From NCBI RefSeq assembly GCF_003334385.1, contig NZ_QOWN01000001.1: DNA of 64,000 nucleotides. One strand, written 5' to 3'. The position numbers and the translations under genes were made by a program. The stretch comes from Escherichia coli (lineage in GTDB: Bacteria > Pseudomonadota > Gammaproteobacteria > Enterobacterales > Enterobacteriaceae). Shown here one piece after another: positions 11,902-14,843 of this stretch (within the stretch, counting starts at the first letter, position 1; each line of letters begins with the position of its first letter). The notes under the pieces are model-generated. The model was not told where the DNA came from. It worked only from the letters and a program-made list of their open reading frames with translations, and did not search any database.

Positions 11902-13398
11902 ATGGCTCACCCTCATTTATTAGCGGAAAGAATTTCCCGCCTGAGCAGTTCGTTGGAAAAGGGGCTTTATGAACGTAGCCACGCCATCCGCTTGTGTTTA
12001 TTAGCGGCATTAAGTGGTGAAAGTGTGTTCCTCCTTGGCCCGCCAGGTATTGCCAAAAGTTTGATCGCCCGGCGCTTAAAATTCGCCTTTCAGAATGCCC
12101 GCGCGTTTGAATATCTGATGACCCGCTTCTCCACGCCGGAAGAAGTTTTTGGTCCCCTTTCTATTCAGGCGCTAAAAGATGAAGGGCGCTATGAACGTTT
12201 AACCAGCGGTTACCTGCCGGAAGCAGAAATTGTCTTTCTGGATGAGATCTGGAAAGCGGGCCCGGCAATTCTTAATACCTTGCTCACCGCCATTAACGAG
12301 CGCCAGTTCCGCAACGGTGCACACGTAGAAAAAATCCCGATGCGCCTGCTGGTGGCGGCCTCCAACGAGCTGCCGGAAGCAGACAGCAGTCTGGAAGCGT
12401 TATATGACCGCATGCTGATTCGTCTGTGGTTAGATAAAGTGCAGGATAAAGCGAATTTCCGCTCCATGCTGACCAGTCAACAGGATGAAAACGACAATCC
12501 GGTTCCTGATGCCTTGCAGGTCACAGATGAAGAATATGAACGCTGGCAGAAAGAGATTGGTGAAATTACGCTGCCCGATCATGTATTTGAGCTGATTTTT
12601 ATGCTGCGCCAGCAACTGGATAAATTACCGGATGCGCCTTATGTCTCGGATCGTCGCTGGAAAAAAGCGATCCGATTATTACAGGCCAGCGCCTTTTTTA
12701 GCGGTCGCAGTGCTGTTGCCCCGGTAGATCTCATTTTGCTGAAAGATTGCCTGTGGTATGACGCGCAAAGCCTGAATTTGATACAACAACAAATTGATGT
12801 ATTGATGACCGGTCACGCCTGGCAACAGCAAGGGATGTTGACTCGCCTTGGCGCGATTGTGCAACGTCACCTGCAACTCCAGCAGCAACAAAGCGATAAA
12901 ACAGCCTTAACGGTAATTCGTCTGGGCGGCATTTTCAGCCGTCGTCAGCAGTATCAACTTCCTGTTAACGTTACTGCTTCCACTCTGACTCTACTGCTGC
13001 AAAAACCGTTAAAACTGCATGATATGGAAGTGGTTCATATCTCCTTTGAGCGTAGCGCGCTGGAACAGTGGCTGAGCAAAGGTGGTGAAATTCGCGGTAA
13101 ACTGAACGGTATCGGCTTTGCCCAGAAACTGAATCTGGAAGTTGATAGCGCCCAACATCTTGTCGTTCGCGATGTAAGTTTACAAGGCAGTACGCTGGCA
13201 CTTCCCGGTTCATCGGCTGAAGGTCTGCCTGGTGAAATAAAACAACAACTGGAAGAGCTTGAAAGCGACTGGCGCAAGCAACACGCTTTATTCAGCGAAC
13301 AGCAAAAATGTCTGTTTATCCCTGGCGACTGGTTAGGTCGCATTGAAGCCAGCCTACAGGATGTCGGTGCACAGATTCGCCAGGCACAACAATGCTAA
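11902..13398 (+). CDS. ravA: MoxR-type AAA+ ATPase RavA
   Basis: 498 aa from MAHPHLL; Walker A GPPGIAKS and Walker B FLDEIWK. Overlaps viaA by 7 nt. Confidence 0.93.
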
Positions 13399-14843
13399 CG
13401 CTGGATACGCTTAATGTGATGCTGGCCGTCAGCGAAGAGGGATTGATCGAAGAGATGATCATCGCACTGCTGGCCTCACCGCAGCTGGCGGTCTTCTTTG
13501 AAAAATTCCCACGCCTGAAGGCGGCAATCACTGATGATGTTCCCCGCTGGCGTGAAGCGCTGCGCAGTCGGCTGAAAGATGCCCGAGTCCCGCCGGAACT
13601 CACCGAAGAGGTGATGTGCTATCAGCAAAGCCAGCTCCTCTCCACGCCACAGTTTATTGTGCAGCTACCACAGATCCTGGACTTACTGCATCGTCTGAAT
13701 TCTCCATGGGCAGAACAAGCCCGACAGTTGGTTGATGCTAACAGCACGATCACTTCAGCGTTACACACGCTTTTTCTCCAGCGTTGGCGTTTAAGTCTGA
13801 TCGTGCAAGCAACGACGTTAAATCAACAGCTATTAGAAGAAGAACGCGAACAACTGTTGAGTGAAGTTCAGGAACGCATGACGCTGAGCGGACAACTTGA
13901 ACCGATTCTCGCAGATAACAATACTGCAGCTGGTCGTCTGTGGGATATGAGCGCCGGTCAGCTTAAACGTGGCGACTATCAGTTGATTGTGAAATACGGT
14001 GAATTTCTTAACGAACAGCCGGAACTGAAACGCCTGGCAGAGCAGCTGGGGCGTTCTCGGGAAGCCAAATCAATACCGCGCAACGATGCGCAGATGGAAA
14101 CCTTCCGCACCATGGTGCGCGAACCGGCGACGATTCCTGAGCAGGTTGATGGTCTGCAACAAAGCGATGATATTTTACGTCTCCTGCCGCCAGAACTGGC
14201 GACACTAGGGATAACGGAACTGGAGTATGAGTTTTACCGTCGGCTGGTGGAAAAACAGTTGCTCACCTATCGCCTGCACGGTGAGTCGTGGCGTGAAAAA
14301 GTGATCGAACGTCCGGTGGTACATAAAGATTACGATGAACAGCCGCGCGGGCCGTTTATTGTCTGTGTGGATACTTCCGGCTCAATGGGCGGCTTTAATG
14401 AACAGTGTGCGAAAGCGTTCTGCCTGGCCTTGATGCGCATTGCTCTCGCAGAAAACCGGCGCTGCTATATTATGCTATTTTCCACCGAGATCGTCCGTTA
14501 TGAGCTTTCAGGCCCACAAGGCATCGAACAAGCAATCCGTTTTTTAAGCCAGCAGTTTCGTGGCGGCACCGATCTTGCCAGTTGTTTTCGCGCCATTATG
14601 GAACGCTTGCAAAGCAGGGAATGGTTTGATGCCGATGCGGTGGTGATTTCTGATTTTATCGCTCAGCGGTTGCCTGACGACGTGACGAGTAAAGTGAAAG
14701 AGCTGCAGCGGGTACATCAGCATCGCTTTCATGCCGTGGCGATGTCGGCACACGGCAAACCCGGCATCATGCGCATTTTCGATCATATCTGGCGCTTTGA
14801 TACCGGGATGCGAAGCCGCCTGCTCAGACGCTGGCGGCGATAA
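13392..14843 (+). CDS. viaA: von Willebrand factor A-domain protein ViaA
   Basis: 483 aa; C-terminal VWA domain with MIDAS motif DTSGSM. Start overlaps the ravA stop. Confidence 0.93.

What the first reader, a model, noticed from the sequence alone, without database searches (positions are those of the whole stretch)
11902..14843. ravA-viaA AAA+/VWA module with overlapping stop and start
A MoxR-type AAA+ ATPase (Walker A GPPGIAKS) is followed by a VWA protein with an intact MIDAS motif (DTSGSM). The genes overlap by 7 nt, implying translational coupling. The pair is a chaperone-like system with still debated physiological targets.
Basis: partly seen in the sequence, partly recalled or inferred. 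Interest (0 to 1): 0.3.

Follow-up and report, generated by a model that had tools for sequence, protein, structure and literature searches.

The report
Ordinary E. coli ravA-viaA operon
This is the well-studied E. coli ravA-viaA operon (a MoxR-type AAA+ ATPase and its VWA partner), essentially identical to the K-12 reference, so it is an ordinary, already described locus.

Summary
ravA (11902-13398, +) and viaA (13392-14843, +) are intact. They overlap by 7 nt (ATGCTAA). RavA carries the Walker A motif GPPGIAKS and ViaA the MIDAS motif DTSGSM.

The 64-kb window is E. coli chromosome, 99.9% identical to and collinear with K-12 MG1655 around oriC. RavA is identical to the K-12 protein. ViaA differs by one conservative residue, V248I. 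The junction is base-for-base that of K-12.

Both proteins pass NCBIfam equivalog cut-offs by a wide margin, and both have solved structures (3NBX/6Q7L; 7UGC). The pair is present in 5423 of 5426 complete E. coli genomes.

In four other enterobacterial genera the two genes also overlap, by 7, 4, 7 and 1 nt. This is compatible with translational coupling but does not prove it. The junction RNA is not unusually structured.

Published work shows that ViaA stimulates the RavA ATPase and that the pair sensitises cells to aminoglycosides. The target is still disputed: Nuo, Frd, membrane lipids or pmf sensing.

The only feature particular to this copy is the minor allele V248I, at a position that is otherwise V in all 20 orthologues compared. 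It lies in the ViaA middle domain.

Verdict: already known, low interest.

The parts
11852..11858 (+). CTATACT, a sigma-S-type extended -10-like element 44 nt upstream of the ravA ATG (candidate ravA promoter; inferred only)
   Evidence: String match. It lies inside the fragment starting at primer RAVA2_forward (11703-11724) that PMC3893208 used as the native ravA promoter. That paper reports sigma-S dependence, and PMC9973319 and PMC9489729 report Fnr control. The generic sigma-70 scan found no + strand site here. The best FNR-like match (11789-11802) has 3 mismatches and is weak.
11902..13398 (+). ravA: MoxR-family (AAA+ clade 7) ATPase RavA, 498 aa, identical in protein sequence to K-12 b3746
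   Evidence: NF010054 equivalog, 993 bits; 2 synonymous nt differences, 0 aa differences from K-12.
11932..12519 (+). RavA AAA+ core (aa 11-206). Walker A GPPGIAKS at 12037-12060 (K52), Walker B D114/E115 at 12241-12246, R-finger R170
   Evidence: Pfam bpMoxR PF20030 2e-56 and AAA_5 9e-28. Residues checked. Their roles are given in PMC6987120.
12580..12795 (+). RavA AAA lid (aa 227-298) with trans-acting sensor 2 R251
   Evidence: Pfam AAA_lid_8 1e-21. R251 present. Role from PMC6987120.
12904..13209 (+). RavA LARA domain (aa 335-436). It binds lysine decarboxylase LdcI and, according to one group, phosphatidylglycerol
   Evidence: Pfam LARA_dom 2e-39. PDB 4upf/5fl2. PMC9489729, PMC10585395.
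13231..13392 (+). RavA C-terminal helical segment (aa 444-497)
   Evidence: Pfam ATPase_RavA_C 2e-23.
13382..13398 (+). ravA/viaA junction: weak Shine-Dalgarno-like AGG (13382-13384) 7 nt before the viaA ATG, then the 7-nt overlap ATGCTAA (13392-13398)
   Evidence: identical to K-12; 51-mer at 99% or more in 5292 of 5426 genomes; CAGGC conserved in 5 genera; no unusual RNA structure.
13392..14843 (+). viaA: VWA-domain partner and stimulator of RavA, 483 aa, K-12 b3745 with one substitution (V248I)
   Evidence: (NF008230 equivalog, 878 bits).
13392..13964 (+). ViaA N-terminal helical domain (aa 1-191, 'VAN fold')
   Evidence: PDB 7ugc matches residues 1-191, E 6e-117. PMC10585395.
13965..14324 (+). 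ViaA middle domain (aa 192-311), the part reported to stimulate the RavA ATPase. It contains the V248I codon ATT at 14133-14135
   Evidence: Domain limits and function from PMC10585395. The substitution is, and its rarity and the conservation of V248.
14325..14840 (+). ViaA C-terminal VWA domain (aa 312-483). MIDAS residues D327, S329, S331 (DTSGSM, 14370-14387), T393 and D421. Arg-rich amphipathic C-terminal helix aa 471-483 (14802-14840) with R476/R479
   Evidence: Pfam VWA_CoxE 6e-10 and VWA_2 6e-8. All these residues are invariant in 21 orthologues and present here. The lipid-binding role of R476/R479 is from PMC9489729.
14844..14847 (.). 4-nt spacer (ATTA) between the viaA stop and the stop of the convergent asnA (14848-15840, -). 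This is the end of the module, with no intergenic terminator

Best explanation
This is the chromosomal ravA-viaA operon of E. coli in its normal place (kup <- | ravA -> viaA -> | <- asnA, about 2 kb from oriC).

Shown by published experiments on the protein pair, which is identical to this one in all but one residue:
- The two genes form one operon. It is induced by sigma-S in stationary phase and by Fnr under anaerobiosis.
- RavA forms a hexameric clade-7 AAA+ ATPase whose nucleotide site is completed in trans by R170 and R251 of the neighbouring subunit.
- ViaA binds RavA and raises its ATPase rate about threefold. This maps to the ViaA middle domain acting on the RavA triple-helical bundle.
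- The pair sensitises E. coli to aminoglycosides. This requires RavA K52, the proton motive force, and (in one study) the lipid-binding residues.

Inferred mechanism: ViaA acts as the adaptor. It uses its VWA/MIDAS domain and its Arg-rich C-terminal helix to reach a client at the inner membrane, either a respiratory complex such as Frd or Nuo, or the anionic lipid patches around such complexes. RavA supplies ATP-driven remodelling.

Inferred for the junction: the 7-nt stop/start overlap, preceded by only a weak AGG, makes viaA translation depend largely on ribosomes finishing ravA. This would fit ViaA being made at a lower level than RavA (about 90 versus 350 molecules per cell).
For: Identity and integrity:
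- both genes intact and of K-12 length, with 0 and 1 aa differences from K-12.
- both NCBIfam equivalog models passed, end to end.
- domain architecture AAA+/lid/LARA/RavA_C and VWA.
- synteny and 99.908% identity to K-12 over 64 kb.
- solved structures of the same proteins.
- present in 5423 of 5426 E. coli genomes.
- the catalytic, MIDAS and lipid-binding residues are all present and conserved.

Mechanism, from the literature:
- PMC3893208: operon, sigma-S dependence, 350/90 molecules per cell, K52Q loss of function, Nuo interaction.
- PMC6987120: hexamer, and the roles of A51/K52/S53/D114/R170/R251.
- PMC10585395: three-domain ViaA, middle domain stimulates the ATPase about 3-fold, the C-terminal domain binds FrdA, persistence phenotype.
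- PMC9489729: membrane localisation, RavA binds PG, ViaA binds PA and CL through R476/R479, Fnr control.
- PMC9973319: pmf dependence.

Coupling:
- The overlap is identical to K-12 and nearly invariant in E. coli.
- The genes also overlap in Citrobacter (7 nt), Klebsiella (4 nt, ATGA), Cronobacter (7 nt) and Buttiauxella (1 nt, TAATG).
- A conserved CAGGC lies 7-8 nt upstream of the ATG.
Against: The physiological client is unresolved, and the groups contradict each other.
- PMC10585395 reports direct ViaA-FrdA binding and Frd inhibition, and saw no lipid binding by the LARA domain.
- PMC9489729 found no direct binding to purified FrdA or NuoEFG.
- PMC9973319 found no effect on Frd or Nuo activity.

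Translational coupling has not been demonstrated in anything I read.
- The junction RNA is less structured than shuffled controls (z = +1.72), so a 'hairpin unmasking' form of coupling has no support.
- The AGG could allow some independent initiation.
- PMC3893208 notes that ViaA goes up in a ravA::cat strain, so viaA can be expressed without intact ravA translation, at least from a cassette.

Promoter elements here are consensus matches only.
Confidence: 0.97

Rival explanations
1. The pair is a MoxR-VWA 'conflict' or anti-phage defence module, not a housekeeping chaperone. This is suggested because the best Pfam match of the RavA ATPase core is the family named for MoxR-vWA-beta-propeller ternary systems.
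For: Pfam PF20030 bpMoxR is the top hit for RavA residues 11-206 (2e-56).
Against: No third, beta-propeller gene is present. The neighbours are kup and asnA, in the window and in four other genera. PADLOC models give no meaningful hit: the best is E 0.003 to a generic AAA region of RtcR, and ViaA gives nothing. The locus is core genome, in 5423 of 5426 E. coli at a fixed position next to oriC, not on a variable island. The NCBIfam equivalog assignment is specific to RavA and ViaA.
Confidence: 0.01
2. The overlap is incidental and viaA is translated independently from its own ribosome-binding site. The 7-nt overlap would be compact gene packing with no regulatory meaning.
For: An AGG sits at ideal spacing (7 nt) before the viaA ATG, and the region is unstructured. 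The overlap length is not conserved between genera (7, 4, 7, 1 nt). [quoted passage not shown]
Against: All five genera examined keep an overlap and none has a spacer. The SD-like element is only 3 nt long. ViaA is made at about a quarter of the RavA level (PMC3893208), as expected for inefficient re-initiation.
Confidence: 0.3
3. This particular copy is functionally altered: the V248I change in the ViaA middle domain modifies stimulation of the RavA ATPase.
For: V248 is V in all 20 other Enterobacteriaceae orthologues aligned, within a highly conserved block. The allele's 51-mer occurs in 1 of 5426 complete E. coli genomes. Residue 248 lies in the domain (192-311) shown to stimulate RavA (PMC10585395).
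Against: Val to Ile is among the most conservative substitutions. The exact protein is already public and was seen on 84 contigs, so it is a circulating minor allele and not a lesion. There are no other changes in either protein.
Confidence: 0.05

Closest known systems
E. coli K-12 MG1655 ravA (b3746) - viaA (b3745) operon
   Same: Same gene order, lengths, neighbours (kup, asnA, asnC, mioC, oriC) and 7-nt junction. RavA is 498/498 identical and ViaA 482/483 identical.
   Different: Three nucleotide differences: 12345 and 12681 are synonymous in ravA, and 14133 gives ViaA V248I.
ravA-viaA of other Enterobacteriaceae (Citrobacter, Klebsiella, Cronobacter, Buttiauxella)
   Same: Same synteny kup | ravA viaA | asnA asnC mioC. 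ViaA is 76-87% identical, with MIDAS and the C-terminal Arg helix invariant. The stop and start always overlap.
   Different: The overlap length varies: ATGCTGA 7 nt, ATGA 4 nt, TAATG 1 nt. RavA is 498-500 aa.
Other MoxR AAA+/VWA pairs (e.g. NorQ/NorD, CbbQ/CbbO, CoxD/CoxE)
   Same: A clade-7 MoxR ATPase is encoded next to a VWA/MIDAS protein that acts as adaptor. The proposed role is maturation or remodelling of a specific metallo- or respiratory enzyme (PMC9976466, PMC5437159, PMC3893208). ViaA's VWA domain hits Pfam VWA_CoxE.
   Different: RavA has the subfamily-specific LARA domain and C-terminal segment. ViaA has the unique N-terminal VAN fold (PMC10585395). Unlike NorQD or CbbQO, no single client enzyme is encoded nearby or agreed upon.
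MoxR-vWA-beta-propeller ternary systems (Pfam PF20030 naming)
   Same: The RavA ATPase core scores best against this Pfam family.
   Different: There is no beta-propeller partner and no PADLOC hit, and the locus is core genome.

Membership tests
RavA (NCBIfam NF010054 equivalog; MoxR family, RavA subfamily) | Full-length match to the curated equivalog model above its cut-off | tested here: met
   993 bits against a cut-off of 681, covering residues 1-498 of a 498-position model.
RavA (NCBIfam NF010054 equivalog; MoxR family, RavA subfamily) | Domain architecture: AAA+ core, AAA lid, LARA domain, RavA C-terminal helix | tested here: met
   Pfam bpMoxR/AAA_5, AAA_lid_8, LARA_dom and ATPase_RavA_C all hit at E 1e-21 or better. 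Full-length PDB match to 3nbx/6q7l.
RavA (NCBIfam NF010054 equivalog; MoxR family, RavA subfamily) | Catalytic residues: Walker A A51/K52/S53, Walker B D114(E115), R-finger R170, trans sensor-2 R251 | tested here: met
   All are present. The list of residues is from PMC6987120.
RavA (NCBIfam NF010054 equivalog; MoxR family, RavA subfamily) | ATPase activity, hexamer formation, LdcI cage formation | not testable with these tools
   Inferred from 100% protein identity to the K-12 protein on which these were measured (PMC6987120, PMC4145799).
ViaA (NCBIfam NF008230 equivalog) | Full-length match to the curated equivalog model above its cut-off | tested here: met
   878 bits against a cut-off of 500, covering residues 1-483 over model positions 1-487.
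ViaA (NCBIfam NF008230 equivalog) | C-terminal VWA domain with complete MIDAS (DxSxS ... T ... D) | tested here: met
   Pfam VWA_CoxE and VWA_2 hits. D327, S329, S331, T393 and D421 are present and invariant in 21 orthologues.
ViaA (NCBIfam NF008230 equivalog) | N-terminal helical VAN-fold domain (1-191) and Arg-rich C-terminal lipid-binding helix (R476, R479) | tested here: met
   7ugc matches residues 1-191 at E 6e-117. R476 and R479 are present.
ViaA (NCBIfam NF008230 equivalog) | Encoded immediately downstream of ravA in one operon | tested here: met
   Adjacent, on the same strand, with a 7-nt overlap. Co-transcription itself is taken from PMC3893208.
Translationally coupled gene pair | Stop codon of the upstream gene overlaps or abuts the start codon of the downstream gene | tested here: met
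   ATGCTAA at 13392-13398. Overlaps are also present in four other genera.
Translationally coupled gene pair | Downstream translation depends on translation of the upstream gene | not testable with these tools
   I found no experiment in the papers read. There is no occluding RNA structure. A weak AGG lies 7 nt upstream.
MoxR-vWA-beta-propeller ternary / anti-phage defence systems | A third gene encoding a beta-propeller protein next to the MoxR and vWA genes | tested here: not met
   The flanking genes are kup and asnA.
MoxR-vWA-beta-propeller ternary / anti-phage defence systems | Match to a curated defence-system model | tested here: not met
   PADLOC gives only E 0.003-0.005 to the generic AAA part of RtcR models, and nothing for ViaA.

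The most novel reading that the evidence does not exclude
The only unexcluded non-trivial reading concerns the rare ViaA V248I allele. It sits at a position that is Val in all 20 other enterobacterial orthologues compared, inside the middle domain that activates RavA. It might measurably tune RavA ATPase stimulation and hence aminoglycoside tolerance or persistence in the lineage that carries it.
Probability: 0.04. Interest if true: 0.25.

Novelty: already known. Interest (0 to 1): 0.06.

Why it matters
As a genome feature it does not matter much. It is a textbook-annotated core operon in reference configuration, with solved structures and about twenty years of literature.

The system is of some general interest because it modulates aminoglycoside killing and persistence under anaerobic or low-energy conditions, and its true client is still disputed. 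Nothing in this window adds to that debate.

Two small points come out of the check. First, the ravA/viaA stop-start overlap is retained as an overlap across enterobacterial genera while its length drifts (7, 4 and 1 nt). Second, this strain carries a minor V248I allele in the RavA-activating domain of ViaA.

Tried and rejected
- I looked for a frameshift or any difference at the junction relative to K-12. There is none.
- I looked for an RNA structure at the junction that could mediate coupling by occluding the viaA start. The region folds less stably than shuffles (z = +1.72), so this was rejected.
- I tested the defence-system reading prompted by the Pfam name bpMoxR. There are no PADLOC hits and no third gene, so this was rejected.
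- I scanned for sigma-70 promoters and terminators. There was nothing upstream of ravA on the + strand, and no terminator after viaA. Only a sigma-S-like CTATACT and a weak FNR-like site were found by string search. I treat these as consensus matches, not evidence.
- An Rfam scan of the whole window found no RNA family in or next to ravA-viaA.
- I checked whether AsnA G184W/E275Q relative to K-12 was unusual. The protein is identical to the AsnA of strain SCU-104, which is annotated with the same accession (WP_000845113.1) as the AsnA of strain L73, so it is a shared allele.
- Technical: loci L003 and L007 never became available to the scripting machine. I worked around this with other loci and with protein comparison.

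Full report
**1. What is in the sequence**

Listing ORFs over 10500-16500 and reading 11700-15100 shows two long same-strand ORFs.

The first runs to a TAA at 13396-13398. Its longest mechanical form starts at a TTG (11878). The ATG at 11902 is the start that matches the NCBIfam RavA model end to end (residues 1-498 of a 498-position model), the K-12 annotation and the crystallised protein.

The second ORF starts at the ATG at 13392 and ends at the TAA at 14841-14843.

- GPPGIAKS is RavA 46-53 (nt 12037-12060).
- The Walker B pair D114/E115 is at 12241-12246.
- DTSGSM is ViaA 327-332 (nt 14370-14387).
- The remaining MIDAS residues T393 and D421 are present.
- The RavA arginine finger R170 and trans sensor-2 R251 are present.
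- The ViaA lipid-binding residues R476 and R479 are present.

**2. Where the window comes from, and how it compares with the reference**

A megablast of 11700-15000 against 5,426 complete E. coli genomes finds the stretch in 5,423 of them. It is always chromosomal and annotated ravA, viaA and asnA.

The whole 64-kb window aligns in a single block to K-12 MG1655 3942995-3878995 in reverse orientation. Identity is 99.908%, with 54 substitutions and 5 gap positions. The window therefore runs from rrsC through the rbs operon, kup, ravA-viaA, asnA, asnC, mioC, oriC, the atp operon, pst and bgl to dnaA-gyrB.

Against K-12, ravA has two synonymous differences and RavA is 498/498 identical. viaA has one difference (14133 G->A), giving ViaA V248I. 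The junction and the 60 nt upstream of ravA are identical to K-12.

The published cloning primers for the native promoter fragment and for the ends of both genes match the window exactly, at 11703-11724, 13378-13398 and 14822-14843 (primers from PMC3893208).

**3. Family assignment**

NCBIfam equivalog models give RavA 993 bits (cut-off 681) and ViaA 878 bits (cut-off 500), both full length.

Pfam gives these hits for RavA:
- bpMoxR/AAA_5, residues 11-206
- AAA_lid_8, residues 227-298
- LARA_dom, residues 335-436
- ATPase_RavA_C, residues 444-497

For ViaA, Pfam gives VWA_CoxE/VWA_2 over residues 320-457.

Solved structures exist for the same proteins: 3nbx, 6q7l, 6sza and others for RavA, and 7ugc for ViaA 1-191.

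**4. The junction and the coupling claim**

The 51-mer centred on the junction is at least 99% identical in 5,292 of 5,426 E. coli genomes.

I retrieved the loci of four ViaA orthologues at 76-87% identity. All have the same neighbourhood: kup | ravA viaA | asnA asnC mioC. In all four the genes overlap:
- Citrobacter: ATGCTGA, 7 nt
- Klebsiella: ATGA, 4 nt
- Cronobacter: ATGCTGA, 7 nt
- Buttiauxella: TAATG, 1 nt

A CAGGC motif is conserved 7-8 nt before the ATG. It offers only a 3-nt AGG match to a Shine-Dalgarno sequence.

Folding 100 nt around the junction gives -22 kcal/mol, against -27.7 ± 3.3 for shuffles (z = +1.72). No start-occluding hairpin is present.

An overlap is therefore retained across genera while its length drifts. 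Together with a weak ribosome-binding site and an open RNA, this fits termination-reinitiation coupling. It also agrees with the reported ~350 RavA versus ~90 ViaA molecules per cell (PMC3893208). It remains an inference. I found no experiment that tests it, and ViaA is over-produced in a ravA::cat strain (PMC3893208), so viaA can be expressed without intact ravA translation.

**5. How the system works (literature, for proteins identical or 482/483 identical to these)**

- ravA-viaA is an operon induced by sigma-S (PMC3893208) and controlled by Fnr (PMC9489729, PMC9973319). A sigma-S-type -10-like CTATACT lies at 11852-11858, but this is a consensus match only.
- RavA is a hexameric clade-7 AAA+ ATPase. 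ADP is held by A51/K52/S53/D114 of one subunit and by R170/R251 of the next (PMC6987120).
- Through its LARA domain, RavA forms a 3.3-MDa cage with the lysine decarboxylase LdcI (PMC4145799, PMC6987120).
- ViaA has three parts: an N-terminal VAN fold (1-191), a middle domain (192-311) and a VWA domain (312-483). The middle domain alone reproduces the ~3-fold stimulation of the RavA ATPase. The VWA domain is reported to bind FrdA (PMC10585395).
- The pair sensitises E. coli to aminoglycosides and lowers persistence. The ATPase-dead K52Q mutant does not complement (PMC3893208, PMC10585395).
- The effect needs proton motive force (PMC9973319).
- One group finds both proteins at the inner membrane. 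RavA binds PG through the LARA domain, and ViaA binds PA and CL through R476/R479. Mutations in these sites abolish gentamicin sensitisation (PMC9489729).

The groups disagree on whether Frd or Nuo are direct clients, and on lipid binding by the LARA domain (PMC10585395 versus PMC9489729 and PMC9973319).

**6. Rivals considered**

The top Pfam hit is named for MoxR-vWA-beta-propeller ternary systems, so I tested a defence-system reading. It fails on three counts. There is no third gene in five genera. There is no meaningful PADLOC hit. The locus is fixed core genome.

The rival to coupling is independent initiation at the AGG. It cannot be excluded, and I give it about 0.3.

**7. What is particular to this copy**

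The nearest complete genomes, such as strain L73, differ from the window over 11700-15000 at exactly one base, 14133.

A 51-mer centred on that base can seed a megablast hit only if the allele is shared. It matches one of 5,426 complete genomes, strain SCU-104. The ViaA of SCU-104 also carries H465Y.

The exact window protein is nevertheless public: UniParc UPI000B42A0D0, seen on 84 contigs.

In an alignment with 20 orthologues from other Enterobacteriaceae, residue 248 is Val in all 20, within a strongly conserved block of the middle domain.

Val to Ile is conservative. I regard this as a neutral minor allele, with perhaps a 4-5% chance of a measurable effect.

**8. Verdict**

The locus is already known and in reference configuration. 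Interest is low.

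Noticed in passing
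window 14133-14135 (viaA codon 248): ViaA V248I (GTT->ATT) is the only difference from the closest complete E. coli genomes across 11700-15000. The allele is found in 1 of 5426 complete genomes, but the exact protein is public (84 contigs). Position 248 is Val in all 20 other enterobacterial orthologues aligned, and it lies in the RavA-activating middle domain.
   Followed up: yes
window 10753-11203 (kup), 14893-16966 (asnA-asnC-mioC) versus the rest: Differences from K-12 are strongly clustered on both flanks of ravA-viaA. There are 12 SNPs (all synonymous) in the 5' part of kup and 24 in asnA through mioC. Only 3 fall in ravA-viaA and 8 in the remaining ~47 kb. This looks like short recombination patches. 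AsnA differs from K-12 by G184W and E275Q but is identical to the AsnA of strain SCU-104, which carries the same accession (WP_000845113.1) as the AsnA of strain L73.
   Followed up: partly
window 14841-14850: The viaA and asnA genes are convergent, with stop codons only 4 nt apart (spacer ATTA, 14844-14847). No terminator-like hairpin lies between or just beyond them, so the two mRNAs probably overlap at their 3' ends. PMC3893208 lists asnA among the few genes whose mRNA changes when ravA-viaA levels are manipulated.
   Followed up: no
window 17021-17252: By coordinate mapping to K-12 3925744-3925975, the chromosomal replication origin oriC lies about 2.2 kb downstream of viaA. The window also spans mioC, mnmG, the atp operon and dnaA-dnaN-recF-gyrB.
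   Followed up: partly
window 1-1188 (-), 27554-27711 (-), 59776-59856 (-): Rfam gathering-level hits: 16S rRNA (rrsC, cut by the window edge), sRNA STnc410 in the atpC-glmU intergenic region, and AsdA, the antisense RNA of the dnaA mRNA.
   Followed up: no
window 1342-1424: A tight cluster of substitutions and all five gap positions relative to K-12 lies upstream of rrsC (K-12 3941571-3941654, the rrnC leader/promoter region).
   Followed up: no
P0007 and P0002; H1 NZ_CM129862.1: Other strains hold altered versions of the locus. One is a 785-aa Salmonella Infantis product carrying MoxR, lid and VWA domains, apparently a RavA-ViaA fusion lacking LARA. Another is a 621-aa E. coli-like ViaA-containing product. 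E. coli strain SW070917 has an IS4 element inserted beside viaA. The 90% cluster holding ViaA also contains RavA sequences, perhaps linked through such fusions.
   Followed up: no
window 11737-11752 (-): A terminator-like hairpin with a T-run sits on the minus strand in the kup-ravA intergenic region, upstream of the kup start codon (11679). It may be a chance consensus match or a leader element of kup.
   Followed up: no
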